From positions 1-52,624 of IMG/VR virus record IMGVR_UViG_3300045738_000739: a stretch of 52,624 nt of DNA; one strand, given 5' to 3'. The position numbers and the translations under genes were made by a program. Below the pieces are notes generated by a model that saw only the letters and a list, made by a program, of their open reading frames with translations, did not search any database and had not been told where the DNA came from. Shown here in pieces: positions 5,459 through 52,624 of this stretch; positions within the stretch are counted from its first letter, which is position 1, and every line of letters begins with the position of its first letter. This DNA comes from a virus. Its lineage: Duplodnaviria > Caudoviricetes.

Positions 5459-5507
5459 ATTATTCTGTCCTCCTGTTCTCCTGTATGGGTCTACCCGCAC
5501 AAGAATC

Positions 5508-7408: not shown

Positions 7409-7423
7409 GTCCGTGTCACGAGG

Positions 7424-7654: not shown

Positions 7655-7735
7655 GTGAAACACCTCCGACTGAGTTATACTCCAATTGTCGCCTAATTGC
7701 GCGGCACCCCCATCATCTTGTGTTGTTCTTCCACA

Positions 7736-38789: not shown

Positions 38790-39821
38790 TCAGGATGCTG
38801 CGCCTACCTGTCGGATTGCAGCCATCACGTTTTGAGGGATGTTTCCAGTTTGCTCGAACAATGCCGTTGCATGCGTGATGCGATCCATCGCAGCGTCGTC
38901 AGTCTGCTCACTCGCGTGAATCATGAGAGTCCGAAGACCACTCTTGATGTCACCTTTAGTCAGGTCATCGTTGCTTTCACCGATCACAGACTTCGCGAGC
39001 TGACGCGAAACGACTTGACCAGTCGAAGTTTGAATTGCGCGTCGCGGAGCCGGCGAACCTTCGACGGTCTCGACACGATCGCCCAGACCCTTGATGATTC
39101 CGTCCTGCTCGGCGATCACGTTGCACAGACCTTTCAGCAGAGAGCCCTGCGCCTTCAGCAGCTCGCGCGTTGCGCGACCGTCGCGACACACCTCAGTCTC
39201 GACCGCATCCATACGCTGGTCGATGCCACCGACAAGCGACTTCAGAAAGTCGCTAGCGTCCACGAGGTTCGACGTGTCTTCGTCTTCTCCGAGAACGTCC
39301 GCAACACTCTTGCTCAGAGCCTCGCTATTGTCGTCTTCGTCTTCGTCAGCCCAGAGGCGTCCCAGCTCTTGCCGTTCGCTCTTGGAAATGGTGCCCGAAT
39401 CGAGCCTCGCCTGGAGAAAGGACTCCCGGCTATTGCCGCTTTCCGACAGTGCCTCTTCGACGGCTGTGTACGCTTCGACAGACTTCATCAAATCTGACAC
39501 GGATACGTCGCCCGACTTCTTCGCCTTCTTCTTCTTCTCCATGTCTTCACCTTCTTCTTCCGACTCGTCGTCGTCGTCCGTGTCTTCCTCTTCGTCGTCG
39601 TCGTCGGGGGAATTGTCGCCTTCTTCGACGGGCAGCGCTTTGAAAGTGTCCTCGTCCAGAAGTTCGTCGTCACCGCCCTTTTCGAGCATGATCTCTGAGT
39701 ATGATTTGTACGTCAGATCCGCTGGGCGCATTCCGCGCGCCAGCACTGACAACGCCCGACCTGCTGGGGTGAGCCCGCCTTCGGGATCCGGCTTTCCGAG
39801 TTTCTGACTTGCTGCTGCCAT
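38790..39821 (-). CDS. scaffold-like acidic protein
   Basis: between protease and capsid genes; D/E tract; about 10 [hydrophobic]-x-K-[SAG] sites. Confidence 0.75.
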   Translation of the reverse strand: MAAASQKLGKPDPEGGLTPAGRALSVLARGMRPADLTYKSYSEIMLEKGGDDELLDEDTFKALPVEEGDNSPDDDDEEEDTDDDDESEEEGEDMEKKKKAKKSGDVSVSDLMKSVEAYTAVEEALSESGNSRESFLQARLDSGTISKSERQELGRLWADEDEDDNSEALSKSVADVLGEDEDTSNLVDASDFLKSLVGGIDQRMDAVETEVCRDGRATRELLKAQGSLLKGLCNVIAEQDGIIKGLGDRVETVEGSPAPRRAIQTSTGQVVSRQLAKSVIGESNDDLTKGDIKSGLRTLMIHASEQTDDAAMDRITHATALFEQTGNIPQNVMAAIRQVGAAS

Positions 39822-39823
39822 CG

Positions 39824-40807
39824 TTATCTCCCGCTGTGGCTGGCCCGGTCCACGATCAGTTCGACCTGTTCAGCCGACAATTGAGGTTTCATGGAGCCGA
39901 CAATAAGTCGAGCCTCAGATTTTGTCATCTCCATTTCGACTGGTTCCTTACTGAACTCTGCCATCGCATCGGCCCAATGGTGGGCGTAGTCAATTGTCGT
40001 CATGACTTCAGGCGTAGCCCGCACTCTGGCCGAATTGTCGCCTTTCGTCAAGTGCGGGTTTTTGCCGGCCACACCGCCTTGATTCGGCTGACCGCCATCT
40101 TCGGACGGAACTGCGCTCAGAAACGAGAGCCCGAACTCTTCTGCGATGGCTTTCTTCTTCTTCTTGCGTTTCTTCGGGGTCTTCTTTTGGTCGTACTGAG
40201 AACCGTCCAGTGATTCTGTTCGTAGCGCGAAACCGCTATCGGTCGCGCCTGCTTCGCTGCCGACCGTATGCCCAGCCGACAATGCCTTGGCAAGCGCAAT
40301 CATCTCGGTCGAGGTATTCACCGGGCAGTGCGTGATCGCCACGTTGCGAACTTCGGCGGCGACAATACGCGAATTGTCGTCTTTGTCGCGACGAAGCACC
40401 TTCCCCTCGATGCTGAAGCCAAGCCGTCGCTCTCCTCCAGTTTTCTGGAGTGCGGCGCACAAGTCGTAAACACGGCGACCTTCGTCGGTGTTCAGCAAAT
40501 AACCCTCTGTCCACCAGCCCTTTTTGTCCGCACGGCGGCCATTTGGCAGCATTGCGCCCTTGGTCACTTGATACGCAGCAGTCGGATAGCCCAGGACATC
40601 AACAGTCTTCTGCCCGTGGTTGTCGTTGAACCAGCCATGCGCCAGGAACGGGCTAAAGTCGAGACCGTCTTGGACGACAACCTCTTGCTGGCGATCGAGG
40701 TCTTGCGTGCTGACGACTCCCCCAACGCGCATCGAACAACCGTCTTCAGCTTCAGACTTCTCCCAAACGCTTAGGGGGATGTGGAATTTGAAAGCTCGGT
40801 CAGACAC
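39824..40807 (-). CDS. prohead protease
   Basis: GGVVSTQDLDRQQEVV, GWFNDNH, RLGFSIEG, NVAITHCPVN. Confidence 0.92.
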   Translation of the reverse strand: MSDRAFKFHIPLSVWEKSEAEDGCSMRVGGVVSTQDLDRQQEVVVQDGLDFSPFLAHGWFNDNHGQKTVDVLGYPTAAYQVTKGAMLPNGRRADKKGWWTEGYLLNTDEGRRVYDLCAALQKTGGERRLGFSIEGKVLRRDKDDNSRIVAAEVRNVAITHCPVNTSTEMIALAKALSAGHTVGSEAGATDSGFALRTESLDGSQYDQKKTPKKRKKKKKAIAEEFGLSFLSAVPSEDGGQPNQGGVAGKNPHLTKGDNSARVRATPEVMTTIDYAHHWADAMAEFSKEPVEMEMTKSEARLIVGSMKPQLSAEQVELIVDRASHSGR

Positions 40808-40899: not shown

Positions 40900-41130
40900 T
40901 CAACCCCGTCGCACACGCAGAGCTGGGATAACACCGGGCTTGTTGGCTAACAACCCCTTGTTGAGCGCACTCGCTACGGCGACAACAACATCTTGTTTGC
41001 AGCTAGGACACGGGCCATGGATCTCACCGTTGTCGGGGTCCACGAGCACGATGCCCAAGCGGAGCCGAAATCCGCCATCGGTAGCTGCGCCACCAATCGA
41101 CTTGCAGCAATGCGGGCATCGAATCTTCAT
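40900..41130 (-). CDS. small zinc-ribbon protein (Com-like)
   Basis: TGATG overlap at 41130; MKIRCPHC...CPSCKQ. Confidence 0.65.
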   Translation of the reverse strand: MKIRCPHCCKSIGGAATDGGFRLRLGIVLVDPDNGEIHGPCPSCKQDVVVAVASALNKGLLANKPGVIPALRVRRG

Positions 41131-41468
41131 CAGTAAACCTGAAGCCCCAGCACACCCGCAGCCGAAGCTACCCGCGAACCCATGTGGCAGCGGTGAACGG
41201 AGCACGCCTTGGCGACTCCACGAAGCACCCTCTGTAGCCCGTCAGAGCCGTGGTGGCGCATGATGTACGCGCAGGTTGACTGGTGCTCCAGCCAGTCAAC
41301 CAGCCAGTCCAGACGGTTGGAGTCCCCTTCCTCGTAGAGCCGGTCGAATGCCGAGATGTTGGGCAGGGGTAGATCGACCTCGCCGGGCAGCCCGGTCGGT
41401 CCAGCTGACCAGAGAACGTGCTCCAAGCGTAGCCCTCTTGGAAGCTCAAACTGTTTGCTGTGTGGCAT
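41130..41468 (-). CDS. hypothetical protein
   Basis: AAGGAG RBS + ATG 41468 overlapping the end of the giant gene. Confidence 0.65.
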   Translation of the reverse strand: MPHSKQFELPRGLRLEHVLWSAGPTGLPGEVDLPLPNISAFDRLYEEGDSNRLDWLVDWLEHQSTCAYIMRHHGSDGLQRVLRGVAKACSVHRCHMGSRVASAAGVLGLQVY

Positions 41469-44400
41469 CGTCATCTCCTTTCATGAGTTTGCGAGCAAAG
41501 TCGAAAACTAGGCGAATCGCCTTGGTGATAACAGTGCTGCTAGCCTTGGACAGCGACAGTGAATCGACCTGCTCAAAATGGCCCGCGACCGAGAAGTCTG
41601 TACCTTCCTGCACGTTTCGGATGATCTGTTCAAAGCTGATCTTGCGGCTTCTGCCCATCGCTCGGGTGCGCCGCTCAGTCGCAACGGGGTGCTCTTTCTC
41701 GTAGCCGGTAAAAACGCGCTGTGGGTCCGGTTTCTCACCATCCACCTTTTTCGGATGGTGAACATGAACCTGGCCAACATTCCCAGATGTGCCCAGCACT
41801 CGCACGTTGACGAGGTATTTCTTCGTTTTAAGCACCGCTCGATCTTCGGGAGTCAGCATGTCGATGAGGCGATTCTGGACATCGTCGTTGGAAACGATGC
41901 CACCCATCGGGCCAGCCTTCATAGCCTGCTCAACTTCGTCCCGCTTATCCTCCATCCAAGTAAAAATCTCGTCAGCTCGAATCGCGAGGTACACCGCAGC
42001 AGCATCGTGCGAACCCGTGCCCGTCGCGGGGTCGTGCTGAACGAAGCCTGCATCCATGACAGCCTTTCGCTCCGCTTCGGAGAGTTGGTAAATCGTGTCG
42101 CCGACTGTCACCGCTTTGCCGTCTAGCGCGTCACGCACTGCGCTCTCAGCATTGACGCAGTGCATAGGCCCGCCACGCGCTAGCGAGGCGTAAGTGCCTG
42201 ACTCAATCTTTTCGGCGAGGTCTACCATCTCCCCCTGCGGAATCGAGATCACTGTTCCGGTACCGCCAGGGATTTTCCGTTTATTCAGCTCATTTAAGAG
42301 CTGATACTGGGTGTTTGCGCCAAGCGTGGCCGCCGTCGCGCACTTGTTGGCCAATAACGTCCACTCGGCAGCAAGCCGGCGTATCTGGGAGCGCGATTCG
42401 CTGGACGGTGGGGCTCCAGGGCAAAGGCGAGTGCGATAATCCTCAGACACCTCAAGACAGCGTGTGCGGATCAACGACAAGGCACCCTCGAACTGCATAC
42501 TTTTAAGCTGCTCGCCTTCGCGTCCAGCGATAGGCCCATTCAAAGTGAGCTTGCCGATATGGCCGACTGGGCGGTCACGCGGACCCGCCTCAAAGATGGC
42601 AGCTTCCATATTTCTGATCTTGCTGAATGGCCCGCTACCGTCGTACTTGGGCCGACCCTTGTCGTCGTACTCCTGAACCATGAACGGGATCTTCTTGCCG
42701 TTCTCGTCCAACTTCGGTTGATTCTGGTCGTCGGTCTCCCAAACAGATTCACCCTTGTGATTCTTCTTCTGAGACATGATGGCGCGACCCAACAGCTTAC
42801 CTTTGACGGCTGCCGGCAGCATCCGCGCGCACCGGGTCGTCCGCTGATCCTCTGCCATCGGGCTCGCCAACGTGTCGTACTTGAGCATTTCGGTGGCATT
42901 ACCGAGATTCATTCCAACCTGCGCAGCATCGGAACAAACGATGACCTCGCAGTTGTTGAAAACCGTCGTCTGCTTAGACGACAATACAGGCGTGTCAGTC
43001 GCACCCTGTTTTGCCAATGCGGTGTACTCTTCTTTCAACGATTGAAGTTCTCTCTTCGCACCCTTCTGGTCGTCGTCAGCCATCTTGTTCGGATCCCCAA
43101 TCTTGGCGATTCGACTCAAAATAGCAGCAGAGCGTTTCGTCCCGTTAAAAGCACGCTTCTCTGTCGTACCATCGCCTTTGGAAACCAAAACGAACGACTC
43201 CGGTGCTTCGATCTTGAACTGCGCGAAAATCTGACTGCGCTGCTCTGCCGTCCACTGGCTAAGCGCAACGTCGTCGGGAGGCTTGCGGTCACCTGGATAG
43301 AGCATCCAGTTCGATTCGTATTCTTTGCCCTTATCCCCAAACACACCCTTCGCGTCCTTCCACGTACTCGCGGGACGGGGCTCAGTGCATTTATGGACAA
43401 AGAGAGAGACCTCGGAATCGCGCTGTAGTGCATCTTTGACCTTCTGGAAGATCGCGACATTCAGCTCACGATCGCCTGTATAGGTCGCGCCAATATAGGT
43501 GACAAAATACTTGTCGTTGGGACTACCATTCTTGGTCGTCTTGTCCTCGGGATCGTAATGCGGCGAACCTTCGAGAACTTCGTTCACATCCCGAAAGCCC
43601 ATCTGCCGCATCTTCGCTTCCATTGTGCGGCACGAGTCGAGAATGCTGTTACCGAACATAACTAGCTGACGCGCGCCATCCGGTCCTGCCTTCCCACCCT
43701 GGCTATAGAACCGGGTGACGTGATCCTCCAGCTCATCCGCCTTCGCGTTCTGGTGGGTACACGCTATGTCGAACTTGTTGCGCTCAGCACGCATGCCGGG
43801 GTCAAAGATGCTTTTGACGAGTGCCGAAACATCCTTTTCCTTGACGATCAAAACCTCGCCGGTCCCAAGCACGCGAACACCCGCTTGACCCACTGGTGCT
43901 GCGATGTCGGGATCATACCGAAACTGCGGAGGCACCCAGTTCTTACGCGCCTCTTTCGCAGCCTCGCGCTCTTCGGGTTGCAAACCGCGTGGCACTCCCG
44001 GCGGAACGATACCCGCAGCCTTCATCGCGCTAGCCGACAATTGGACTAGAGCACCCGACCTGACTGCCGCGAAACCTTCCTTGCTCAGATCCTTGGGCCT
44101 GTGATTCTTCTCATCCCAGTCTTTCGGCATGAAGACCACATGCTGCGATCCTTTGGGATCCGAAATCCAATTGTCGTCGGTCGTGAGCTGAACCGGATCG
44201 CCGCTGTGGTCGGCTGACCACGACTGCTCAATGATCGTAGGCGAAGGGTGGATCTGGAGCAGCGCTCGACCTTCCTCCAGCGAGATCCCAAGACGGTTGC
44301 AGACGTTCTGGAGACCTTCCTCCCAATCCCCGTCAGGCGGCTCAAGCTGAAGCTCCGTGCGCAGCGCACGCTGAAAGTGCAGCGCTCGGTCGATCTCATC

Positions 44401-47400
44401 GACCCGTGCAGCCCGCTGCCCCAGCAAAGCCTTCTGGGCACTGCCAGAGGACCGCCTGATGCGCTCGTTGATCTCGTCCAGCCAGTTGATCCCGTGACCG
44501 CGAAAACGCACACCCAGCTCACCCGCGTCGGGGTTCTCGATCTTCTTGCCTAGTGGCGCATCCCAGCCAGCATCGACCATGCGCTTCAAAGCTACCTTCG
44601 TCTGTGCTGCCGTGGGCTTGCCTGTGCCCTTGTAACCCGGCATCCCGGTGCCGATCCACTTGCCCGCAAGCTCAGCATACGGCTGCCCCAGAACTTCCTG
44701 GCAGTACAGATCATAGACGGCAGCCTGCTCAGGTCCGATCTCCTCGATGCGCTTAAACTTCCCTTTCGCAGTGCCTCTGGACTTGTCCATCAGTTCCGAA
44801 GGTCGGAACGTGGTGAAGTCAACCCGTGAGTTTGATTCACCACCCGACTTGTTAAAAGTGACCGTCGTCACCCTAATAAACTTCTCGGGATTGCCCGCTT
44901 TATATCCAATACAATTGGTGATCGCCTTGGCTGCCTTCGTCAGCTTACGTGTCTCCTCGTCACTGATGCGGTCGATCTCTTCCGGGTCAAGTCCAGCTCC
45001 ACCCGTATCCGAACCTAGTGACGCCATATACAGGTTGAACAGCGTTTCCTGGATGCCCTTCATCTCTGCGAACTTGCTCTCCTCTGTACGGACACCGGGG
45101 AGAACCTTGCCTCGCACATCCTTCGGTAAAGCTATGTCCATCCACTTCGCGAGAATGGCCGCAAGCTCACCCATCTTTTCCGCCTTAACCGACAGCTTTG
45201 CACCCTTTCCAGATTCGCCAAGCTGCCCAGGAACGGGCGTCTCCTCCAAATACTCGTCAATGAATTTCTTGCTGGTCATGTCGGGCCATTCTTTGCCCTT
45301 CGACAATAACCGCACATACTCAACGAAGTCGGTCGGTGATGTCGTCATCGGAGTGCCGGTCAACAACATCAGCATCTTCATGTCGTCATTCCACTCACGC
45401 ACTACACGATTTCTCTCAGCCGTTTCATTCTTGATGCCCATGTGAACCTCGTCCACGATCAGCCCATCGAATCCACACTGCTTGAGTTTGGCCGCATGCT
45501 TCGTAAAATACTCAGGACCGACGACAACCAGATCGCCGCGCGAACTATCTTTCATCGCAAGAAATTCATCTGCTGAAATATCGCCTGACCCGCGACCGAC
45601 CACTTGCGCTCCCTCATCGAAATCGGCACATGCTTTACGCCACTGCTCAACGGTGTTGAGCGGAGCGACAACCAGCACACGCTTCGGATTACCCGGATTG
45701 CGCCGCGTATTGTCGAAAGGATTATTCTCGTACCAATCTTTGATGTCCTCCGCTGTCATCTTGGCTTTCTCAGCCGATGAGAGCTTCGCGCGAGCAGGAC
45801 GTTCCATCATCATTTTCGCGGCGACAATTGCGGAGACAGTCTTGCCCGTGCCCATATAATGAGCAGCAAGAACTCGACCATCGTTGTCTATCATTTTCTG
45901 AAGCAGCTTTTGCTGATGGCCGCCCAACGTGAACTCTTCGCCCGATGGCAAACGCTTGTTGAGCCCTGCGCCCCAATTGTCGGCGAGATTTGCGGGATCG
46001 ATCTCAGCCAACGACATCTCGTGCGCGTCAGCCGACATCGACTTCTCAGCATCCACAAGATGATCAATGCGCTGCTTCAGATAAGTGTCCACCTCGCCAG
46101 TCAACGAAAGCCCACCAAGCATCTTCCGCAACTCGGGGAAGCGGTCAGCTGGAACCTCGACCGCAGTGATCTCACCCCTCAAACCTGGAACTAGCTCTGG
46201 GCCTTGATCGGCAGCAACCGCTCCTTGGATGGCGAGGATGGAATCGGCGGACACACGTCCGTTCTTCGGTAGCTTGACCCGCAAACTCTTGTGCATCGTC
46301 GCGCCCGTTCTCGGATCGACATCGTGGTGCATGTAGACCAGCACCTCATTTTCGAGAGCTTCTGGCGTGTGTGAGCCCTTTGGCCAGCTCGTTGAAGAAC
46401 GAACTGCGTCCTCACCGTAGCGAATAAAAGTACGACCCGGCGTGCCGCCGCCGACTTCGCCTTTGAAGAGGTAAGCAGTCGGATACGCTTTCGCCTTCTC
46501 CGATTTGTACGTCGATCGGTACGCCGCCATCGCGGGGACGAAGTGGGCATTGAACCACTCTCGATACACGTCGCCGCCATTGTACCACTCGGGAAGAAGA
46601 CCCTGTTTGATGTAGCCCTTCTCAGCCTTGGTGAGCTTCTGCCCATCGGGAACCGGGTGCGACGGCGTCAAGTTTGGGATGTAGTTCCCAGCCAAATCCT
46701 TGGGCATGCGATCCCAACCAGGCTTTGGCGGCGCTTCACCGGCTTTCTTACCCATGATGATCCGCTCAAGACGAGCGACAACCGTCTTGTCCTCAATGAC
46801 CGGATCTGTTTTAGCAGTGGCGTCGATCAGAACACGCGAACCCTTTGTAGGCAGCGCACCCTTTGGCGGCTTTGCAGGCGGGTTGAGTGTGATCTGCTGC
46901 GCACCGATGACAGCGCGTGCGCCTTCACGAAAAGCGAAGATCGGATCGTCCTTCAGCAAGTCGTCGATGCGCGGCTCATCTTTGCCAAGACGACTCGCCC
47001 ATTCCTTGCCCATGATCTTGGGCTGGCCGGAACCATCGTACTCGACCTGCATGTGGTAGACGTGTTCGCAGTCGCCCTTCTTCCCCATCTTCCATTTGCC
47101 GTTAGCCTTCTGAATGCGCTCACGGTCAGTGCGAACAGAGATCCAAGTAGTGCGCTTTTCAGCAGCCGCCTTCTTGCAGAAACGACGCAAATCGTCGGCA
47201 GAGTTGATCGACTCACCATACGGAGTAAGCAACGCTGACCACATTGGATCGGAGACTCGGAAGCCTGTCCCCCTGGGATCGCGATGGCAGTCAATTGTCG
47301 TCGTCGTTCCATCCGGGTTGTCATTCACAAAACGCTTGGAATCGAAAATGGGCTCGACCTTGCCGGTCACATGGTTGACAGCCGTCACCACATCAGCACG

Positions 47401-49629
47401 GGTGAAATGTCCCTTGGCGTTACGCGCCATTTTGATCTTGATTCCAGGCTGCTTTTTGCGCAGCTTGGTCAGCGCAAGACGCTTCTGCTCGTCTGTCTGC
47501 GCGCGTTGCCACGCGCGCATCTCGGACTCGCCCGCCGTGTCCCAACGGTCGTAAGAGAACGTGCCAGACCTCTGACGGAACTCGCGACAGGTAAGCTCGT
47601 GCGGGCGCATAAGCGCAGGCTTTGGCGGTTTGCCGTTAGCGTCGTTGTAAGCCGCCTCCATCTTAGCCAGCTCATCGGCAGTCGCCTTACGTTCTGGCTT
47701 CTTGAGCGTCCACGCTTTGCCGCTCTTGATCGCAACAACACCCTTCTCAAGTGCTTTTTCGAGTAAGGCTTGACCGGCAGTAGTCGTATCGCGCAGAAGG
47801 AATTTTGGACCCATCTTGTCCACCAAGGCTTGGACCTTGGCTGCCTTGGCTGCGGACACTTTAGAACCCGACTTCTTACTCTTGAGACCTGTCGGGAGAT
47901 CGAGAATGTCTTGCAGCGTAACGTCGAGCTTTTTGCCTTTGACAGTAACCTGCGCAATCTTCGCTTTGGGGTCGTCGAACTGGTCCTGCATCAGATGCCA
48001 GTAGATCAAATCCCGATCAAGAGGCTGACGGTTTTCGTCAAATACCTCTTTGATGTCCTCTGCCCTGATCACTGCGTTATTGGACGACTGACTCGGATCA
48101 GACGGATCCCAGTTAGGCTTTCCCATGTCCCCATCAACCGACTGTTTGCCATAACGGAAATAAATCGTCCTACCCCGATAAGACATCTCGAAGAATCGAT
48201 CATGCAGCCGCTTCGTCTGACGACCGATTTTGTCTTCGTCAGGCGGATCCGCGACGTACTGAGTCTCGCTAGTCTGCGGGGGACGCGGAACAGCCTGGAT
48301 CAGCTTGGCCACTGGCTTGACTTCTTTTCCGGCGAACCAGGCCAACCTCTCATCCTCGAAATCCATCTCGTCCAACCCGTCCAACTTGTCGAGTCTCTTT
48401 TGGACGGCAGCCTTGTCGGCTGGGCTCCGCGCTGTATCAAGCTCAGCCTTTAGCTTCTCGATCCCAACCTTGTCGGTCGTGAGCGGAAACATCTCATCGG
48501 CACCGATGAATTGTCGCATCCACTCATACGTCTTCGGGCAGCTCACGGACATCTGCTTCGGGTACAGGATCGAACAGGAAAAGCTCTCAGCGAACCGCTC
48601 CTTCATGTGGACATCACGACCCTTTTGAGTGATCTCAGCGTAAGCCGTGATTCCCGGCTCTTTGCCCTTACCCACGAGGTTCTTCTCGAAGAACGAAACC
48701 CAGTCCTTCCAAAGAGGCCCGTCATAATCCGGCCCCATATCGTTCGGACCTCGCGCACCCATCTTGTTGTGGATCGCGTGCGCCATCTCATGGACCAGAA
48801 TATCTACAGAAGATGTGCCCGCATCGAACTGAGGAAGATGCTCCCCTCTCGGAGCGATCCTAGAACCACCCCAGGCGGGCTGTTTTACCCCTTTCCCCGG
48901 CGTCTTCCCCGACCAAGATCCGTCTGCGCCAGTCAGGTCGAGTCCCAATACGATCTTTGAACCCTGAGTCCCCCAGCCTCCAGCCATGCAATAAGCCGAA
49001 GCAGAACCACGACGGAGATAAGCGTCTTCGTCCTTGGTCGTCACCAGAAGCTCGGAAATAGAGCCGGAAAAATGCTTGCGTATATTCGACGGGATCTGCC
49101 GGAACCCTAAGTCGAGAATCCTGAGAGCGTGGATCTTCTGCCCGTACAATTCGTCGGGCTCACCTCCCAAGTCCGCATAATGTTCCTCGACCGCATCCTT
49201 GAAAACCGACTGCGCTACAGGCGACAATACAATCTCGGGCGGCTTGTCCCACGCTAGAAACTCGGTGACCAGATCCACGGTCAAATCTTTTAACTCGGTA
49301 CGCGCCGCACGCAGCTCCGGGTGATCGCCCTTAAACTCGGAGCGCAGACCACCCTCATGCTCTTCGACAGGAGCCTGCGGGGCTTTGCCTTGCAGCTTCT
49401 TAACCTGCTTCTTCTTGCGCTTGATCTTGCGCGCCTGCGACTCCAAGAACTGCTTCCGACCCTCTTCGTTGTCGTAGTAGTATTTCCACCGGAGCTTGCC
49501 CTGCGACATCGTGCGGACTCGACGCCAGTATTTGTGCCCTGCTTGCGCGCCTCGTGCGAAGCCAACGCCCGCTTTCTCAAGCTCGTCGGGTGTGTACGTG
49601 GGATGATCCAAATTAAGCCCGAACTTCAT
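41446..49629 (-). CDS. giant polyvalent protein: zincin metallopeptidase + SNF2-family ATPase (DarB-like architecture)
   Basis: GGAGG + ATG 49629; HEMAH...ERFAESF...CPKTYEW; HYMGTGKT, IVDEVH, LLTGTP, SDAAQVGMNL, EDQRTTRCAR. Confidence 0.88.
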   Translation of the reverse strand: MKFGLNLDHPTYTPDELEKAGVGFARGAQAGHKYWRRVRTMSQGKLRWKYYYDNEEGRKQFLESQARKIKRKKKQVKKLQGKAPQAPVEEHEGGLRSEFKGDHPELRAARTELKDLTVDLVTEFLAWDKPPEIVLSPVAQSVFKDAVEEHYADLGGEPDELYGQKIHALRILDLGFRQIPSNIRKHFSGSISELLVTTKDEDAYLRRGSASAYCMAGGWGTQGSKIVLGLDLTGADGSWSGKTPGKGVKQPAWGGSRIAPRGEHLPQFDAGTSSVDILVHEMAHAIHNKMGARGPNDMGPDYDGPLWKDWVSFFEKNLVGKGKEPGITAYAEITQKGRDVHMKERFAESFSCSILYPKQMSVSCPKTYEWMRQFIGADEMFPLTTDKVGIEKLKAELDTARSPADKAAVQKRLDKLDGLDEMDFEDERLAWFAGKEVKPVAKLIQAVPRPPQTSETQYVADPPDEDKIGRQTKRLHDRFFEMSYRGRTIYFRYGKQSVDGDMGKPNWDPSDPSQSSNNAVIRAEDIKEVFDENRQPLDRDLIYWHLMQDQFDDPKAKIAQVTVKGKKLDVTLQDILDLPTGLKSKKSGSKVSAAKAAKVQALVDKMGPKFLLRDTTTAGQALLEKALEKGVVAIKSGKAWTLKKPERKATADELAKMEAAYNDANGKPPKPALMRPHELTCREFRQRSGTFSYDRWDTAGESEMRAWQRAQTDEQKRLALTKLRKKQPGIKIKMARNAKGHFTRADVVTAVNHVTGKVEPIFDSKRFVNDNPDGTTTTIDCHRDPRGTGFRVSDPMWSALLTPYGESINSADDLRRFCKKAAAEKRTTWISVRTDRERIQKANGKWKMGKKGDCEHVYHMQVEYDGSGQPKIMGKEWASRLGKDEPRIDDLLKDDPIFAFREGARAVIGAQQITLNPPAKPPKGALPTKGSRVLIDATAKTDPVIEDKTVVARLERIIMGKKAGEAPPKPGWDRMPKDLAGNYIPNLTPSHPVPDGQKLTKAEKGYIKQGLLPEWYNGGDVYREWFNAHFVPAMAAYRSTYKSEKAKAYPTAYLFKGEVGGGTPGRTFIRYGEDAVRSSTSWPKGSHTPEALENEVLVYMHHDVDPRTGATMHKSLRVKLPKNGRVSADSILAIQGAVAADQGPELVPGLRGEITAVEVPADRFPELRKMLGGLSLTGEVDTYLKQRIDHLVDAEKSMSADAHEMSLAEIDPANLADNWGAGLNKRLPSGEEFTLGGHQQKLLQKMIDNDGRVLAAHYMGTGKTVSAIVAAKMMMERPARAKLSSAEKAKMTAEDIKDWYENNPFDNTRRNPGNPKRVLVVAPLNTVEQWRKACADFDEGAQVVGRGSGDISADEFLAMKDSSRGDLVVVGPEYFTKHAAKLKQCGFDGLIVDEVHMGIKNETAERNRVVREWNDDMKMLMLLTGTPMTTSPTDFVEYVRLLSKGKEWPDMTSKKFIDEYLEETPVPGQLGESGKGAKLSVKAEKMGELAAILAKWMDIALPKDVRGKVLPGVRTEESKFAEMKGIQETLFNLYMASLGSDTGGAGLDPEEIDRISDEETRKLTKAAKAITNCIGYKAGNPEKFIRVTTVTFNKSGGESNSRVDFTTFRPSELMDKSRGTAKGKFKRIEEIGPEQAAVYDLYCQEVLGQPYAELAGKWIGTGMPGYKGTGKPTAAQTKVALKRMVDAGWDAPLGKKIENPDAGELGVRFRGHGINWLDEINERIRRSSGSAQKALLGQRAARVDEIDRALHFQRALRTELQLEPPDGDWEEGLQNVCNRLGISLEEGRALLQIHPSPTIIEQSWSADHSGDPVQLTTDDNWISDPKGSQHVVFMPKDWDEKNHRPKDLSKEGFAAVRSGALVQLSASAMKAAGIVPPGVPRGLQPEEREAAKEARKNWVPPQFRYDPDIAAPVGQAGVRVLGTGEVLIVKEKDVSALVKSIFDPGMRAERNKFDIACTHQNAKADELEDHVTRFYSQGGKAGPDGARQLVMFGNSILDSCRTMEAKMRQMGFRDVNEVLEGSPHYDPEDKTTKNGSPNDKYFVTYIGATYTGDRELNVAIFQKVKDALQRDSEVSLFVHKCTEPRPASTWKDAKGVFGDKGKEYESNWMLYPGDRKPPDDVALSQWTAEQRSQIFAQFKIEAPESFVLVSKGDGTTEKRAFNGTKRSAAILSRIAKIGDPNKMADDDQKGAKRELQSLKEEYTALAKQGATDTPVLSSKQTTVFNNCEVIVCSDAAQVGMNLGNATEMLKYDTLASPMAEDQRTTRCARMLPAAVKGKLLGRAIMSQKKNHKGESVWETDDQNQPKLDENGKKIPFMVQEYDDKGRPKYDGSGPFSKIRNMEAAIFEAGPRDRPVGHIGKLTLNGPIAGREGEQLKSMQFEGALSLIRTRCLEVSEDYRTRLCPGAPPSSESRSQIRRLAAEWTLLANKCATAATLGANTQYQLLNELNKRKIPGGTGTVISIPQGEMVDLAEKIESGTYASLARGGPMHCVNAESAVRDALDGKAVTVGDTIYQLSEAERKAVMDAGFVQHDPATGTGSHDAAAVYLAIRADEIFTWMEDKRDEVEQAMKAGPMGGIVSNDDVQNRLIDMLTPEDRAVLKTKKYLVNVRVLGTSGNVGQVHVHHPKKVDGEKPDPQRVFTGYEKEHPVATERRTRAMGRSRKISFEQIIRNVQEGTDFSVAGHFEQVDSLSLSKASSTVITKAIRLVFDFARKLMKGDDDATQQTV

Positions 49630-49970
49630 GCCACGCCTCCTCGCCCAGTTGGGCAAACGCGCGTCAACGGAAACTTGCGAATTGCAGCGCCGAAGTGCTT
49701 GGGGTCGTCAGCCGTCACCACACCAGACATCATCACGTCCATGTTTGGGTCGTCACTCTCCCCCGCCCACCGTGTCCACACCGGCTGATCCATGAAGGTC
49801 GCTAGCTCAGCCCAAAACGAACTGTCGGCTACTTTGGCATCGAACTCGACAACACGGAACCCATGGTCAGCGCTCTCGTCGCGCTCCAGCGAACATGCCC
49901 AGCGGAACTGCGGACGATGCGCGCGGTAGTACCTGTGTAGGTGATAAATGTCTTTCTCTGCATCAGCCAT
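49626..49970 (-). CDS. hypothetical protein
   Basis: AAGGAG RBS + ATG 49970; ATGA overlap with the giant gene. Confidence 0.65.
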   Translation of the reverse strand: MADAEKDIYHLHRYYRAHRPQFRWACSLERDESADHGFRVVEFDAKVADSSFWAELATFMDQPVWTRWAGESDDPNMDVMMSGVVTADDPKHFGAAIRKFPLTRVCPTGRGGVA

Positions 49971-52488
49971 TGTCATCTCCTTGTGACGCTGCTTCTTCTT
50001 TGGTGGGCACTCTGCGCGCCGCACCGGAAAGTTCTGCTCGATAGCGCTGCGCTGCTTTGCGGCCCGCCGCCGAAGCCGGATCAGGCATCGGAACCCGACC
50101 TGTAAATTGCTGGAACCGTGCCGGCGACATCACCTTCGACTCGCCGCCAAACGACGGACCTCTCCACGTCGTCGGATCCGATCCGCGTTTCAGCAGGGCT
50201 TGCATGTAGCCCCGCATCACCTCGTCCGCGTACAACCAGCTCGACTCTGGATCTGAGCCGGTCGGAATGGTCTCCACTTCGTCACTGCCAACGGACCTCG
50301 TTCTGCCGTATCGTAGAAATTCTGACAGCCGCTCTCGATCACGTTGCTCGTGATAAAGCTGACGAACCTCACGCTTCTCGGCAGCCGACGCTTTGCCTGA
50401 CTTTTCCCTCTTCAGAATCTTGCCAACGCGATCACCCCGCCCTGCTCTCACACCAGCCGCGTAAATCCTGACCCGCTCGTGTTCGAGCCCTTCAACATGT
50501 CCTGTCAGCACTGCAATCCTAGACGACAATTGATCCTGATTGTCGTCCTTCGCAGTATCACGCTTGGAACGCAATTGTTCAATCTGCTTTTTCGCGCTTG
50601 CAATAGCTTGTTTGTCAGCACCAAATCGAGCAAACAACTCGCGATAGCTGGGACCGGGCGACTCCTCGGTACCGAAGAACTGGCCCGGAGCACCAGCCTC
50701 GATCCACTTCTGCGCATGCAGTCGCGCCTCCGCACCCTTCTCGTGCGCAACACGCTGAAACATCTCGGTCGCCGCGCTGCGTGCCTGGGCTCCCAGACCC
50801 CTCTTGTGCCGCGCCGAATGCCCCTTTTTGGCGATGCCTAGCCGCTCAGCCAGCTCCTCGTTCGACATCACGACGTTGCCGCTCAATTGTCGCCTACCTT
50901 CGCCGGGTTCAGCGTCCGGTGTGAGGCCAAACAGCAACTCGATGGCTCGCGCATTCTGATGGCCGATCTTCCGCTCGTCGCTTCCCGGCTTCCCCACCTG
51001 TTCCATGTCGCTCAGAATGTCATCGATCTCACGACGCAGATGGAGCTGCGTCCCAACTGGAAAATCGGGATCAGTGTGCGGACCCGCCACCTCGTGCGGG
51101 TTTTGATTCATCCACTCAGAGTCGAGCACCCGGTGACCATCGAGCACCCGGTCGAGCGTGCTGATGAGTCGATCCTTGCCCGGCAGTTCCTTGCCCAGCT
51201 CCTTGCCGTCTGGAGCCCTAACCTGCCACCCGTCGAACGGAACTTCTTCAGTCGCCTGATCGACAACCTTGCCTACGTCGTTGTGGTAGACACCAAGTGT
51301 CGCCGCTCGTCCGGTGAAGGTGTCACGCTTCTGGAGTCTCCACGCTCTCGCGATTGCCTTCTTGGTGGGCTCCTCATCGGTCTTGCGACTGGCTCGGTGC
51401 TTGGCCGCGATGTAGCCGTGCATCAGGCGCATCGTCTGGTGCGGCACAGAGGGACCACCGCCGCCCAGCGCAGACCGTGCCGCATACGACGCATAGGTGT
51501 TGACGTAATCTTGGGCGATCATGGCAAACGGCTTGCCGCCTGAATAGCCACGCAAAGCCATCAAGAATCCAAGATTCGCACCGCTCTTGATCTCCTCGAA
51601 GTCGGGCGACTCGTTGCCATCGGAATCACGCATGTCGATTGCGTGGCTCGCGGCAACTTTACGCGATGCAGAGTGCAGCAGCCCTTTGAACTCCTGCAAC
51701 ATCCCGGCTTGGTCAGCCTTCGGAATGAAGATCCCTTGAGACTTCTTCGCGCGCAGCCCGCGCTCGCGATCCACGAAAGTCGCCAACGGATAATGACCGT
51801 TCTCGACCTTGTGCAAGAACGTACCAGCCTTGGCTCTCGAATCCGCGAACACCTTCGACCGCTCGGCTTCTTCGGAGACAGGATGATCTCCAGAACCCTG
51901 CTTTATGGGCTCTGTAATCGCCCTTCCTGGGGGTAGCTTTCCACCGGGTGTGCCGGCCCGTTTCTTCGGCGGTGGACGCCTGGGGGCTGTCCTACGGGGC
52001 TTCACGGGGGCTTTTGGCTTAGCCTTGCCCTTCATCGGCTGGAGTTTTGACGATCTGACCCGGATAGGCTCGCCAGCCGCCCGACCGTGCTCGGGATCGA
52101 ACGTGGTGACATGCGTGTACTTTCCGTCGTCGTCGGCTGCATCCGGTGTCCAAACGAACAGACCATGCCGACCTTGGATGCTGACGAACTGCCCCGCCTT
52201 GATGTCCGAGATCCCGGTCTTGCCGTAGTCGGCTTCCCAGTCGTGATGATCCCCGTGCTTGTGCTCTGTCGGGTACCAGTAGATCCAGCCTCGGCCCTTG
52301 CGCTTGCGGAACCCCCTATGCTTTGAGTTGGGGATCGAGCTGTAGCCGGCTGGTGGTTTGGTCACGCCGGCTTTGCTCAAGCTATTGTCGGCGACAATTG
52401 CTAGGGTCAGCTTCTTCGGTTTCGCCTTTCGAGCAGACAAGGGTGTTGCAAAAGCTGCCTGTATTTCTCGCACATGTGAAGGGTTCAT
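49963..52488 (-). CDS. sigma70-like protein with long N- and C-terminal extensions
   Basis: region 2-like GLLHSASRKV..DFEEIKSGANLGFLMALRGYSGGKPFA; region 3-like EEPTKKAIA; region 4-like RAIELLFGL..MSNEELAERLGI. Confidence 0.7.
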   Translation of the reverse strand: MNPSHVREIQAAFATPLSARKAKPKKLTLAIVADNSLSKAGVTKPPAGYSSIPNSKHRGFRKRKGRGWIYWYPTEHKHGDHHDWEADYGKTGISDIKAGQFVSIQGRHGLFVWTPDAADDDGKYTHVTTFDPEHGRAAGEPIRVRSSKLQPMKGKAKPKAPVKPRRTAPRRPPPKKRAGTPGGKLPPGRAITEPIKQGSGDHPVSEEAERSKVFADSRAKAGTFLHKVENGHYPLATFVDRERGLRAKKSQGIFIPKADQAGMLQEFKGLLHSASRKVAASHAIDMRDSDGNESPDFEEIKSGANLGFLMALRGYSGGKPFAMIAQDYVNTYASYAARSALGGGGPSVPHQTMRLMHGYIAAKHRASRKTDEEPTKKAIARAWRLQKRDTFTGRAATLGVYHNDVGKVVDQATEEVPFDGWQVRAPDGKELGKELPGKDRLISTLDRVLDGHRVLDSEWMNQNPHEVAGPHTDPDFPVGTQLHLRREIDDILSDMEQVGKPGSDERKIGHQNARAIELLFGLTPDAEPGEGRRQLSGNVVMSNEELAERLGIAKKGHSARHKRGLGAQARSAATEMFQRVAHEKGAEARLHAQKWIEAGAPGQFFGTEESPGPSYRELFARFGADKQAIASAKKQIEQLRSKRDTAKDDNQDQLSSRIAVLTGHVEGLEHERVRIYAAGVRAGRGDRVGKILKREKSGKASAAEKREVRQLYHEQRDRERLSEFLRYGRTRSVGSDEVETIPTGSDPESSWLYADEVMRGYMQALLKRGSDPTTWRGPSFGGESKVMSPARFQQFTGRVPMPDPASAAGRKAAQRYRAELSGAARRVPTKEEAASQGDDNG

Positions 52489-52624
52489 AAGTGTTCGACC
52501 TCCACATACCTGACGGTAAGCTCGTCATGGAGCTTTTCGTCACGAACGGACTTCACGCGCATGCTGCCTGAACTTATCACTTCGTCTTCACCCGAATAGG
52601 CAGACACCCCATCGACGTAGGTTC
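52485..52624 (-). CDS. C-terminus of a probable ADP-ribosyltransferase (partial)
   Basis: translated by hand: TYVDGVSAYSGEDEVISSGSMRVKSV..VRYVEVEHL*; S-x-Y-x-x-E-x-E motif; ATGA overlap with the next gene. Confidence 0.6.
   Translation of the reverse strand, partial: TYVDGVSAYSGEDEVISSGSMRVKSVRDEKLHDELTVRYVEVEHL

What the first reader, a model, noticed from the sequence alone, without database searches (positions are those of the whole stretch)
41446..52624. Probable capsid-packaged effector cluster (ART + sigma-like + peptidase/SNF2) with a shared N-terminal addressing motif
Seen: three large non-structural-looking genes lie upstream of protease-scaffold-capsid and are translationally coupled into that operon. 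The two complete ones begin alike: DELEKAGV..GHKYWRRVRTMSQGKLRWKYYYD and NSLSKAGV..KHRGFRKRKGRGWIYWYP. That is L-x-K-A-G-V followed by a basic W-x-Y-[YW]-Y stretch. The same L-x-K-[AS] site occurs in the capsid leader (ELNKALTAG). Established: SPO1/Twort-like capsid proteins mature at a K-S site, and T4 Alt (ART) and P1 DarB (SNF2-containing) are head-packaged, injected proteins. Inference: these are processed by the prohead protease and co-injected as a takeover / anti-defence kit.
Basis: partly seen in the sequence, partly recalled or inferred. Interest (0 to 1): 0.8.

Follow-up and report, generated by a model that had tools for sequence, protein, structure and literature searches.

The report
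Conserved tag on phage head cargo
Two large non-structural proteins encoded beside this phage's capsid genes each begin with a likely capsid-protease cutting site followed by a small basic hairpin, a tag that recurs on about two hundred similar proteins of uncultured phages and may mark proteins carried inside the virus head.

Summary
The window is a whole 52.6-kb fragment of an uncultured myovirus with an SPO1-like capsid. Upstream of protease, scaffold and capsid lie a 44-codon gene end (ART unverified), an 841-aa sigma70-like protein, and a 2,727-aa zincin plus SNF2 polyvalent protein, interleaved with three small conserved ORFs. Both complete proteins start with a variable leader, a hydrophobic-x-Lys|Ala site, then a basic/aromatic beta-hairpin. 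The hairpins are two distinct flavours of one recurrent module, with a third flavour elsewhere. I found 328 copies in 198 proteins, at N-termini and at domain junctions of phage polyvalent proteins. No Pfam or NCBIfam model covers it, and the motif strings gave no relevant hit in the paper library. The same Lys site is conserved in the capsid protein N-terminus (15 of 15 relatives, plus SPO1), after the protease catalytic domain (16 of 17) and four times in the scaffold. It aligns with the residue before the mature N-terminus of a solved staphylococcal phage capsid protein. Processing by the prohead protease is therefore well supported in silico. Packaging, injection and any addressing role of the hairpin remain inferred. 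This is a new variant of a known kind (polyvalent, head-carried effectors).

The parts
52485..52624 (-). 3' end (44 codons plus stop) of the upstream gene, cut by the contig end. It reads ...SAYSGEDEVISSGSMRVKSV... and its stop overlaps the ATG of the next gene (ATGA).
   Evidence: No Pfam hit, no tblastn hit in phages, no homologue. ART is only a motif-level resemblance (recalled ExE pattern). Relatives carry a MuF-like gene here, fused to InPase or holding an intein.
49963..52488 (-). P0002, 841 aa. It comprises a leader (aa 1-39), the site L37-S38-K39|A40, an F1 hairpin, a small beta-barrel (aa 84-154), a Pro/Lys-rich linker, a sigma70-like region and a helical C-terminal part.
   Evidence: The family profile hits SigA 7l7b_F at E 3.2e-5 in two collinear stretches, regions 2 and 4. 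The Foldseek list is dominated by sigma factors, best E 4.6e-3. Sigma70_r4 matches 3 of 11 family members and not P0002 itself.
52270..52380 (-). Site plus F1 hairpin module of P0002 (aa 37-73): LSK|AGVTKPPAGYSSIPNSKHRGFRKRKGRGWIYWYP.
   Evidence: F1 profile built without P0002: E 1e-20, the only hit in the window. AF2 strands 60-64 and 67-71, pLDDT about 62-69. The upstream h-x-K-[AGS] is present in 11 of 11 family members by inspection.
49626..49970 (-). orf114a, a small conserved ORF between the sigma-like gene and the polyvalent gene. Function unknown.
   Evidence: Overlaps both neighbours. Homologues sit in the same position in L002/L019, L030 and L007/L021. No Pfam or PHROG hit.
41446..49629 (-). 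P0001, a polyvalent protein of 2,727 aa from the ATG. It comprises a leader, the site L17-E18-K19|A20, an F2 hairpin, a basic helix, a zincin metallopeptidase domain, a long middle region, an SNF2-type helicase and a C-terminal tail behind a second conserved Lys site.
49474..49581 (-). Site plus F2 hairpin module of P0001 (aa 17-52 from the ATG): LEK|AGVGFARGAQAGHKYWRRVRTMSQGKLRWKYYY.
   Evidence: F2 profile built without P0001: E 8e-15. The site is conserved in 14 of 14 orthologues. AF2 strands 36-42 and 45-52 with pLDDT 61-75, and leader 1-31 disordered.
48295..49353 (-). Zincin-like metallopeptidase domain (aa about 93-445 from the ATG), with HEMAH at 280-284.
   Evidence: H280, E281 and H284 are nearly invariant in 16 sequences, as are E324 and E348. 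pLDDT is about 90. The Foldseek list is dominated by zincin peptidases (M34-type and Pro-Pro endopeptidases), best E 1.9e-3, prob 0.99.
42820..45918 (-). SNF2-type helicase module (SNF2-related domain through Helicase_C, with a long insert).
   Evidence: Pfam SNF2-rel_dom E 1.1e-16, ResIII 2.2e-6, Helicase_C 5.7e-5. phrog_62 'DNA helicase' 1.2e-30.
41446..41529 (-). C-terminal tail of P0001, starting at the conserved site I-T-K|A-I and followed by ..RLVFDF... A candidate C-terminal propeptide.
   Evidence: The site is conserved as h-x-K-[AGS] in 11 of 14 orthologues. Similar tails occur in L002, L003, L007 and L010.
41130..41474 (-). orf114b, a small conserved ORF after the polyvalent gene.
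   Evidence: Homologues sit in the same position in L002-L007 and L030. No family hit.
40900..41205 (-). Small CxxC...CxxC (zinc-ribbon-like) ORF. The real start is probably the ATG at about 41130.
   Evidence: Homologues in L002-L007, L030 and L022 begin near residue 26. Only sub-threshold zinc-ribbon Pfam hits.
39824..40807 (-). Prohead serine protease. Behind its catalytic domain lie the conserved site A-L-A-K|A-L (aa 171-176), a stretch that mimics the MCP N-terminus (..GFALRTESLD), a poly-Lys patch and a second conserved site T-K|S-E-A.
   Evidence: phrog_1028 E 2.3e-47. Pfam Peptidase_S78 E 0.003, 18.2 bits, below the 21-bit cut-off. Alignment of 17 relatives. BLAST of MCP aa 32-80 against the L004 protease tail gives 51% identity, E 5e-8.
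38790..39821 (-). Scaffolding protein with a strongly acidic tract and four L-x-K-[AS] sites (aa 111, 169, 221, 275).
   Evidence: phrog_15087. 4 sites against 0.35 expected. L111, K113, K171, L221, A224, L275, K277 and S278 are invariant in 7 relatives.
37217..38740 (-). Major capsid protein of the SPO1-like family. The predicted maturation site is L39-N40-K41|A42.
   Evidence: phrog_752 E 2.2e-79, Pfam SU10_MCP. 33-36% identity to SPO1-group Bacillus phage MCPs. PDB 9vel Gp6.1 E 4.9e-68. The site is conserved in 15 of 15 relatives and in SPO1.

Best explanation
This is the head-morphogenesis operon of an uncultured myovirus with an SPO1-like capsid. Besides protease, scaffold and capsid protein it encodes large cargo-type proteins: a sigma70-like protein and a 2,727-aa zincin plus SNF2 polyvalent protein.

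Each cargo protein carries a two-part module. The first part is a hydrophobic-x-Lys|Ala/Gly/Ser site of the same form as the conserved sites in the capsid protein, the protease tail and the scaffold. The second part, a few residues later, is a Lys/Arg/Tyr/Trp-rich beta-hairpin. P0002 has flavour F1 and P0001 has flavour F2.

Proposed mechanism. The proteins are built into the prohead. The prohead serine protease cuts after the Lys. This removes a 39-aa leader from P0002, a 19-aa leader from P0001, and probably a tail of about 24 aa from the C-terminus of P0001. In relatives the same cut would separate whole upstream domains such as InPase or GNAT, so polyvalent proteins there behave as polyproteins. 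The hairpin stays at the new N-terminus of each mature piece. It most likely keeps the piece inside the head, bound to DNA or to the assembly core, until it leaves with the DNA.

What is shown: the module, its recurrence, its position, the conservation of the sites and the domain identities. What is inferred: cleavage, packaging, ejection and the role of the hairpin.
For: 1. Site identity.
- MCP N-terminus [LI]-x-K-A in 15 of 15 relatives. Protease post-catalytic site with Lys in 16 of 17 and Arg in 1.
- SPO1 MCP ALNK|ALEAG and SPO1 protease PLDK|SLEAG...FRKESLD. Listeria phage DALK|SFTTGYG and Staphylococcus phage AIK|AFTTGYG.
- One staphylococcal phage MCP is deposited both as 463 aa and as 439 aa, offset 24 at the N-terminus. 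This places the mature N-terminus right after the aligned Lys.
- The scaffold has four conserved sites.

2. Selective conservation. In P0001 only the N-terminal site (14 of 14) and the C-proximal site (11 of 14) are conserved among 18 candidates. The sigma-like family has the site before the hairpin in 11 of 11 members.

3. Site and hairpin are coupled. A site lies within 20 aa upstream of F1 in 58 of 97 cores (17 of the 97 are at the very N-terminus), of F2 in 16 of 18, and of F3 in 17 of 18. F3 was not part of the search profile. Background is 11.6%. In 12 separately fetched loci the figure is 35 of 49 against 5.6%.

4. Recurrence on unrelated cargo. 210 representatives at E<=1e-3 among 1.84 billion. 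328 copies in 198 proteins, 104 N-terminal and 224 internal. Partner domains include InPase, ART-PolyVal, ddrB-ParB, SAM lyase, topoisomerase IB, C5-methylase and zeta-toxin-like kinase.

5. Location. In the window only P0001 and P0002 hit. In relatives all 6 profile hits and all 5 F3 hits lie in large ORFs upstream of the protease on its strand. In the 12 further loci 48 of 49 cores lie on the strand of the seed match, with 1-4 tagged ORFs per locus. Where the protease gene is in view (4 loci) it lies on that strand too.

6. Structure. Both hairpins are predicted as two-stranded beta-hairpins after a disordered leader.

7. Precedent.
- Polyvalent proteins are predicted to be virion-carried (PMC5512222, sections 8, 23 and 32 read).
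- In SPN3US the prohead protease removes N-terminal propeptides from head proteins and a C-terminal propeptide from itself (PMC10052503, passages).
- In Thermus phage Lalka27a a DarB-like protein and a 1,715-aa helicase protein are virion components (preprint 10.64898/2026.04.20.719267, passages). Its relative Lalka8 has an MCP of this family (H43, 25% identity). In Lalka8 the counterparts carry LLAK|AE near the N-terminus, and a 427-aa protein starts with an F2 hairpin.
Against: - No experimental datum exists for this phage or any close relative. tblastn with F1, F2 and F3 segments found no significant match in 50,697 GenBank phage records, so nobody has looked at these proteins in virions.
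- L-x-K-A is a common helical tetrapeptide. AF2 puts PDELEKA in a short low-confidence helix, so the site could be a structural part of the module and not a cut site.
- The protein sets were gathered with a profile that included the site, which inflates the coupling for F1 and F2. It does not for F3, and does so less.
- 39 of 97 F1 cores have no site within 20 aa.
- MCP, protease and scaffold have sites but no hairpin, so the hairpin is not needed for cutting and its role is open.
- The sigma-like assignment is remote: E 3.2e-5 by profile, and no Pfam sigma hit for P0002 itself.
- In Lalka8 the virion helicase gene lies in the tail module, not upstream of the protease.
Confidence: 0.55

Rival explanations
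1. The module is a functional unit that is not cut. The h-x-K-[AGS] turn plus basic/aromatic hairpin is a nucleic-acid-binding or RNA-polymerase-binding element that works in the infected cell. Its likeness to the capsid maturation site is coincidental. The proteins may or may not be packaged.
For: The hairpin is rich in Lys, Arg, Tyr and Trp and is followed in P0001 by a long basic helix. 17 of 97 F1 cores sit at the extreme N-terminus with no leader to remove. 39 of 97 F1 cores lack a nearby site. L-x-K-A is a frequent helical motif, and AF2 models it as a short helix.
Against: Among 18 candidate sites in P0001 only the two terminal ones are conserved. That is the pattern expected for trimming sites, not for helices in general. 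F3, which is unlike F1 and F2 in sequence, is preceded by the same site in 17 of 18 cases. The site follows the local MCP/protease form in L023 and L024.
Confidence: 0.2
2. The junction sites are cut by the zincin metallopeptidase of the polyvalent protein itself, in cis or in trans, as proposed in general for polyvalent proteins, and not by the prohead protease.
For: P0001 has a well-modelled zincin domain with a nearly invariant HExxH directly behind the tag. Iyer et al. 2017 propose autoprocessing by such domains (PMC5512222, section 8).
Against: The same site form is conserved in MCP, protease and scaffold, including SPO1-like and Twort-like phages whose head operons in view show no polyvalent gene between portal and protease. 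In one staphylococcal phage MCP it coincides with the mature N-terminus implied by two PDB depositions. Pfam, which did not detect the zincin of P0001 either, reported no peptidase domain in the 11 tag-bearing proteins scanned.
Confidence: 0.12
3. The proteins are ordinary intracellular phage proteins, namely a late sigma factor and a helicase, that happen to lie in the late operon. They are not carried in the head, and the tag serves something else, such as folding or turnover.
For: SPO1-type phages are known to encode their own sigma factors (recalled, not tested here). The promoter and terminator scan is uninformative: 8 promoter-like sites against 5.1 +/- 2.3 expected.
Against: The position between the MuF/portal genes and the protease is conserved across relatives. 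Junctions overlap with head genes. A sigma factor made only with the head proteins comes too late to switch on its own operon (inference). InPase, the partner domain in relatives, is fused to a solved portal (9b41, E 4.3e-17) and to MuF-like proteins. The Lalka27a large proteins are virion components.
Confidence: 0.13

Closest known systems
Polyvalent proteins of phages and conjugative elements (Iyer, Burroughs, Anand, de Souza, Aravind 2017, PMC5512222)
   Same: Large multidomain proteins that combine unrelated activities (zincin peptidase, SNF2 ATPase, InPase, ART, ParB-like). They are encoded among late virion genes and predicted to travel with the DNA. P0001 fits this, and the tag-bearing proteins found here carry that paper's signature Pfam domains.
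   Different: In the parts I read (abstract, sections 8, 23, 29 and 32, and term searches) the paper attributes processing to the zincin domains. Those parts do not describe a Lys site plus hairpin junction module. 'Sigma' occurs 0 times in its main text. Its supplementary files could not be seen and may list such a motif.
T4 internal proteins and Alt with the capsid targeting sequence (Mullaney and Black 1996, cited in PMC10052503; details recalled)
   Same: Head-carried, injected proteins with an N-terminal leader removed by the prohead protease.
   Different: In T4 the conserved targeting part is the leader, which is cut off, and the cut follows Glu (recalled). Here the leader is variable, the conserved hairpin lies after the cut and would be retained, P1 is Lys, and the module also occurs inside proteins.
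Head and ejection proteins of giant phages SPN3US / phiKZ processed by the prohead protease (PMC10052503, passages read)
   Same: One prohead protease cuts many head proteins at a short consensus, removes N-terminal propeptides and trims its own C-terminus. The protease here likewise has conserved sites behind its catalytic domain.
   Different: The protease family and the consensus differ: that paper gives a three-position cleavage motif (P3-P2-P1) for gp245, whose residues did not appear in the passages shown. No conserved post-cleavage hairpin is reported in the passages read.
Phage P1 DarB and the Dar system
   Same: A very large helicase-containing protein carried in the head, with an anti-restriction role (as summarised in PMC5512222). 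phrog_62 links P0001 to large phage helicase proteins.
   Different: No methyltransferase domain was detected in P0001. P0001 has an N-terminal zincin domain instead. P1 uses other head proteins for loading (recalled).
SPO1-like / Herelleviridae head maturation
   Same: The MCP is 33-36% identical to SPO1-group Bacillus phage MCPs. The aligned Lys site and the MCP-mimicking protease tail are the same.
   Different: In the stretches of SPO1, Alsa_3 and AG20 that I saw, nothing, or at most one small ORF, lies between portal and protease. This phage inserts more than 11 kb of cargo genes there.

Membership tests
Polyvalent protein (sensu Iyer et al. 2017) | Two or more domains of disparate activity in one polypeptide | tested here: met
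   P0001 has a zincin peptidase domain and an SNF2-type helicase.
Polyvalent protein (sensu Iyer et al. 2017) | Encoded among late virion genes of a phage | tested here: met
   It lies between the sigma-like gene and the protease-scaffold-MCP genes, with overlapping junctions.
Polyvalent protein (sensu Iyer et al. 2017) | Delivered into the host with the DNA | not testable with these tools
   No virion or infection data exist for this uncultured phage.
P1 DarB-like methylase-helicase | N6-adenine methyltransferase domain coupled to the SNF2 helicase | tested here: not met
   Pfam at E<=5 reports only SNF2-rel_dom, ResIII, Helicase_C and a chance DUF5320 hit. No PDB sequence match.
Zincin-like metallopeptidase | HExxH helix plus a downstream Glu, in a zincin fold | tested here: met
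   H280, E281, H284, E324 and E348 are nearly invariant in 16 sequences. pLDDT is about 90. The Foldseek list is dominated by zincin peptidases, best E 1.9e-3. Catalysis not tested.
Sigma-70 family | Region 2 and region 4 in collinear order | tested here: inconclusive
   The family profile matches SigA in two collinear stretches, E 3.2e-5. The Foldseek list is dominated by sigma factors but with E>=4.6e-3 and low TM. Pfam Sigma70_r4 matches 3 of 11 members and not P0002.
ADP-ribosyltransferase (T4 Alt-like) | Catalytic R-S-E or H-Y-E triad in an ART fold | not testable with these tools
   Only 44 C-terminal residues lie in the contig. GEDEV resembles an ExE strand (recalled pattern). No Pfam, tblastn or homologue support.
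HK97-type (S78) prohead serine protease | Sequence membership and position before scaffold and MCP | tested here: met
   phrog_1028 E 2.3e-47. Pfam S78 is below its cut-off at 18.2 against 21 bits. Gene order. Catalytic residues not examined.
T4-type capsid targeting sequence | The conserved N-terminal peptide is itself removed at the protease site | tested here: not met
   Leaders before the site are variable or are whole domains. Conservation lies after the site.
Site plus hairpin module (defined here) | h-x-K-[AGS] within about 20 aa upstream of an F1, F2 or F3 core | tested here: met
   P0002 has LSK|A then F1, and P0001 has LEK|A then F2. Family-wide coupling is shown.

The most novel reading that the evidence does not exclude
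The Lys site plus basic hairpin is a portable, sequence-readable cargo module of a large clade of uncultured phages with SPO1-like capsids. On this reading their polyvalent proteins are true polyproteins cut by the prohead protease at every such junction. Each released enzyme keeps the hairpin as the element that holds it in the DNA-filled head and lets it leave with the genome. The injected set here would then include a phage sigma70-like factor that reprograms host RNA polymerase from the first moment of infection.
Probability: 0.3. Interest if true: 0.8.

Novelty: new variant of a known kind. Interest (0 to 1): 0.6.

Why it matters
- If the module marks head cargo, the injected proteome of many uncultured phages could be read from sequence. 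That proteome includes anti-defence enzymes, nucleotide-metabolism enzymes and possibly a sigma factor.
- It would give a concrete, testable answer to how polyvalent proteins are processed: by the capsid protease at Lys junctions rather than by their own zincin domains.
- It would offer a short tag for loading foreign proteins into SPO1-type capsids.
- A sigma factor delivered with the DNA would be a takeover strategy distinct from the injected RNA polymerases of N4 and the phiKZ-like phages.
- Even on the conservative reading, the module is a recurrent element with no Pfam or NCBIfam model covering it.

Tried and rejected
- Close relatives of P0002 in viral contigs: none found.
- ART check on the 44-residue fragment: Pfam, tblastn against phages, local BLAST (best E 1.5) and the homologue search were all negative.
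- Pfam and NCBIfam on tag segments: only chance hits such as DUF5320.
- Literature strings GPRGGKW, GGYRKR, IGPRGG and PRGGKWAD: 0 occurrences. YWYP gave only unrelated papers among the 15 of 30 listed.
- Printed N-terminal sequencing data for SPO1/Twort-like MCPs: searches and papers PMC10054541, PMC3170307, PMC3185647 and PMC4281155 gave nothing usable. PMC523202 is not held. I therefore used the two PDB depositions.
- Protein Atlas on P0002 30-160: only weak KOW/SH3-like structural neighbours, TM 0.40-0.45.
- tblastn of F1, F2 and F3 segments against 50,697 phage records: no significant match.
- Genome scan with F1: 1 locus, in a MAG contig.
- Complex prediction of the scaffold with the P0001 N-terminus (residues 1-85): no answer, score 0.00. 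This is no evidence either way.
- Promoter and terminator scan: nothing above chance.
- Rejected: that F1 and F2 are one motif detectable by sequence.
- Rejected: internal cutting of P0001, since none of the 16 internal candidate sites is conserved.

Full report
WHAT THE WINDOW IS

The window is an entire IMG/VR virus record of 52,624 bases, estimated 57% complete. All substantial ORFs lie on the minus strand. PHROG matches show a contractile-tailed phage: tail sheath, baseplate wedge and tail fibre proteins. Primase, DnaB-like helicase and another helicase lie at the low-coordinate end.

The head genes are a prohead protease (phrog_1028, E 2.3e-47), a scaffold (phrog_15087) and a major capsid protein (phrog_752, E 2.2e-79; Pfam SU10_MCP). 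The MCP is 33-36% identical over more than 90% of its length to the MCPs of the SPO1-group Bacillus phages listed. Its best solved relative is the chain labelled Gp6.1 (9vel, E 4.9e-68).

THE OBSERVATION

Upstream of the protease, in transcription order, lie these genes:
- A 3' gene end of 44 codons cut by the contig end (52485..52624).
- P0002, 841 aa (49963..52488).
- orf114a (49626..49970).
- P0001 (41446..49629 from an ATG preceded by GAGGAGG; 2,727 aa). A 2,727-aa representative, P0083, has the length expected from that ATG.
- orf114b (41130..41474).
- A small CxxC ORF (40900..about 41130).

The junctions overlap by 4, 8, 4 and 29 nt. The protease and scaffold genes are 2 nt apart. There are gaps of 92 nt before the protease gene and 49 nt before the MCP gene. 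A simple promoter and terminator scan finds nothing above chance in the region.

The three small ORFs are conserved at the same positions in relatives.

THE TWO N-TERMINI

P0002 reads ...ADNSLSK|AGVTKPPAGYSSIPNSKHRGFRKRKGRGWIYWYP. P0001 reads ...PDELEK|AGVGFARGAQAGHKYWRRVRTMSQGKLRWKYYY.

They are real instances of a recurrent element, but of two flavours:
- A profile of 181 F1 instances from other proteins finds only P0002 among the 735 six-frame ORFs of the window (E 1e-20).
- A profile of 60 F2 instances finds P0001 (E 8e-15). P0002 is the next best hit at E 0.24.

AlphaFold2 models with family alignments predict a two-stranded hairpin in both:
- P0002: strands 60-64 and 67-71.
- P0001: strands 36-42 and 45-52.

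Each hairpin follows a disordered leader, at moderate confidence (pLDDT about 60-75).

THE MODULE ELSEWHERE

The three closest homologues of P0002 carry an InPase domain, and one also a GNAT domain, in front of the same element. There the element is internal.

A profile of eight instances retrieved 77 proteins at E <= 10, 50 of them below 1e-3, from the word-indexed collection. It retrieved 210 representatives at E <= 1e-3 from 1.84 billion cluster representatives. In the 198 proteins that match locally there are 328 copies: 104 start within the first 60 residues and 224 are internal. One protein holds up to 6 copies.

Partner domains are those of polyvalent proteins: InPase, ART-PolyVal, ddrB-ParB, SAM lyase, topoisomerase IB, C5-methylase, zeta-toxin-like kinase, SNF2 and Rho_N.

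A third flavour, GP[YF]IGP[RK]GGxW.DP.H (F3), occupies the same junction positions.

No Pfam or NCBIfam model covers any flavour. The motif strings do not occur in relevant papers of the searchable library.

Single-sequence tblastn finds no significant match in 50,697 GenBank phage records. A scan of one genome per prokaryotic species found one MAG contig. The module therefore belongs essentially to uncultured phages. The one cultured carrier I found, by profile, is Thermus phage Lalka8. Its protein 4 begins MAKAPQGQHIRPGHKYIRRWWDAKAGRWRYEYY (E 3e-4).

THE LYS SITE

A hydrophobic-x-K-[AGS] tetrapeptide lies within 20 residues upstream of the core in these proportions:
- F1: 58 of 97 (17 of the 97 sit at the very N-terminus).
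- F2: 16 of 18.
- F3: 17 of 18.
- Random positions of the same proteins: 11.6%.

The protein set was gathered with a profile that included the site, which biases the F1 and F2 figures. F3 was not in the profile.

In 12 further viral loci fetched by core patterns only, 35 of 49 cores have the site against 5.6% background. 48 of 49 cores lie on the strand of the seed match, with 1 to 4 tagged ORFs per locus.

The same site form is the conserved feature of the head proteins:
- MCP N-terminus [LI]-x-K-A-L-x-A-G...G-F-P-L-R-x-E-S-L-[DE] in 15 of 15 relatives.
- The stretch right behind the protease catalytic domain in 17 of 17 relatives, with Lys in 16 and Arg in 1. It is followed by an MCP-like G-F-x-L-R-x-E-S-L-D and a poly-Lys patch.
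- Four nearly invariant sites in the scaffold.

SPO1 has ALNK|ALEAG in its MCP and PLDK|SLEAG...FRKESLD in its protease. A Listeria phage has DALK|SFTTGYG. A Twort-like staphylococcal phage has AIK|AFTTGYG, and its protease has FMK|YLTTGHG.

One staphylococcal phage MCP is deposited in the PDB both as 463 residues and as 439 residues, with the same C-terminus and an N-terminal offset of 24. The shorter chain starts 17 residues before ALRRE. That is the residue immediately after the Lys which aligns with K41 of this MCP. This is my evidence that the Lys is P1 of the maturation cut in this capsid lineage.

WHICH SITES MATTER IN THE CARGO PROTEINS

In an alignment of 14 orthologues of P0001, only two of 18 h-x-K-[AGS] matches are conserved. 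One is L-E-K|A at residue 17 (14 of 14). The other is I-T-K|A, 26 residues from the C-terminus (11 of 14). The remaining 16 are conserved in at most 5 of 14, and that best case lies inside an SNF2 motif. The prediction is trimming at both ends and no internal cutting.

In the sigma-like family, all 11 members show the site 4-10 residues before the PPxG of F1.

In the window as a whole, L-x-K-[AS] occurs 14 times in the five head-operon proteins. Shuffles expect 4.05 +/- 1.96, and 0 of 2,000 shuffles reach 14 (binomial P 2e-4). The 37 other ORFs hold 7 against 5.7 expected.

DOMAIN IDENTITIES

P0001:
- Behind the tag and a basic helix lies a zincin-like metallopeptidase domain. HEMAH and two downstream Glu are nearly invariant. 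pLDDT is about 90. The Foldseek list is dominated by zincin peptidases, best E 1.9e-3.
- Further on lies an SNF2-type helicase. No methyltransferase was detected, so P0001 is not a DarB-type methylase-helicase.

P0002:
- It has a small beta-barrel after the hairpin.
- It has a region that matches sigma factors. The family profile matches SigA at E 3.2e-5 in two collinear stretches, regions 2 and 4.
- The Foldseek list is dominated by sigma factors, at E >= 4.6e-3.
- Pfam Sigma70_r4 matches 3 of 11 members and not P0002 itself.

The sigma assignment is probable but remote. Iyer et al. 2017 do not mention sigma (0 occurrences in the main text).

The ART call rests on SAYSGEDEV in 44 residues. 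Every check was negative or impossible. Relatives have a MuF-like gene at that position, fused to InPase in two loci and holding an intein in one.

HOW IT MOST LIKELY WORKS

The cargo proteins are made with the head proteins and enter the prohead. The prohead protease then cuts after Lys at the conserved sites. It degrades the scaffold, matures the MCP, releases its own tail, and removes the leaders (and probably the C-terminal tail) of the cargo. In relatives it would separate whole domains at each junction, which makes those polyvalent proteins polyproteins.

The hairpin lies after the cut and would stay on the mature protein. Sites without hairpins occur in MCP, protease and scaffold. Hairpins without leaders occur at some N-termini. 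So the hairpin is probably not a protease recognition element. It more likely has its own role, and retention on DNA or on the assembly core is my best guess.

A fold of the scaffold with the P0001 N-terminus gave no answer. That is no evidence either way.

Precedents:
- Polyvalent proteins are predicted to be virion cargo (PMC5512222).
- In SPN3US the prohead protease processes head proteins (PMC10052503).
- In Thermus phage Lalka27a a DarB-like protein and a 1,715-aa helicase protein are virion components (preprint). Its sibling Lalka8 has an MCP of this family (H43, 25% identity). In Lalka8 the counterparts carry LLAK|AE near their N-termini.

VERDICT

The sequence observation is real and far from chance. 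The reading 'processed by the prohead protease' is well supported by comparative evidence.

'Packaged and co-injected' is plausible by context and precedent but unshown. 'N-terminal addressing motif' needs revision. The element is a junction or N-terminal module whose conserved part is retained, not removed. It comes in three flavours and is widespread on polyvalent proteins of uncultured phages.

It is a new variant of a known kind. My confidence that the sites are cut by the prohead protease is about 0.6. My confidence that the proteins are head cargo is about 0.65. My confidence that the hairpin is the loading or retention element is about 0.3.

Noticed in passing
window 39824..40807 (protease), aa about 170-215 and 290-300: The protease tail copies the MCP N-terminus (LAK|ALSAG...GFALRTESLD against LNK|ALTAG...GFPLRVESLD). 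It then has a poly-Lys patch and a second conserved site, h-T-K|S-E-A, before a small C-terminal helical part. The same mimicry is seen in SPO1 and in a Twort-like phage.
   Followed up: partly
window 52369..52488 (P0002 leader): In the family alignment the leader residues SHVREIQAA align with the last helix of the InPase domain of the relatives (TTVRAIRE..). The leader may be the remnant of a lost InPase domain.
   Followed up: no
window 38790..39821 (scaffold), aa about 60-95: A strongly acidic tract (DDDDEEEDTDDDDESEEEGED) is followed by KKKKAKK. It is opposite in charge to the basic hairpins and to the poly-Lys patch of the protease.
   Followed up: no
window 24844..27303: An 819-aa tail-region protein with no PHROG match carries LERLAK|AGGGAGG at residue 98. 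It is one of the seven L-x-K-[AS] matches in the 37 ORFs outside the five head-operon proteins.
   Followed up: no
L019 (G001) 7256..9727 and 9730..10494, minus strand: Upstream of the portal of the closest relative lie an 823-aa His-rich protein with an F1 and an F3 module and a 254-aa protein with DLVK|G followed by ..GGHVIGHTSSGKAIY, possibly a further flavour.
   Followed up: no
L012 6565..9507: The MuF-like head protein of this relative holds an intein (Intein_splicing E 3e-9, Hint_2 E 1.9e-7).
   Followed up: no
PDB 9b41 chain L: The InPase domain of the sigma-like family matches the C-terminal part (residues 624-732) of a solved phage portal protein (E 4.3e-17). This is a direct structural link between that domain and the head interior.
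   Followed up: no
L006 3..3425, aa 722 and 854: An orthologue of P0001 carries two extra modules (F3, then an F1-like one) and additional domains after the helicase. The same gene is therefore extended by junction modules in a relative.
   Followed up: partly
window 2073..7052: Replication genes (primase, DnaB-like helicase, SF2 helicase) follow the tail module on the same strand. There is no strand switch in the whole 52.6 kb.
   Followed up: no
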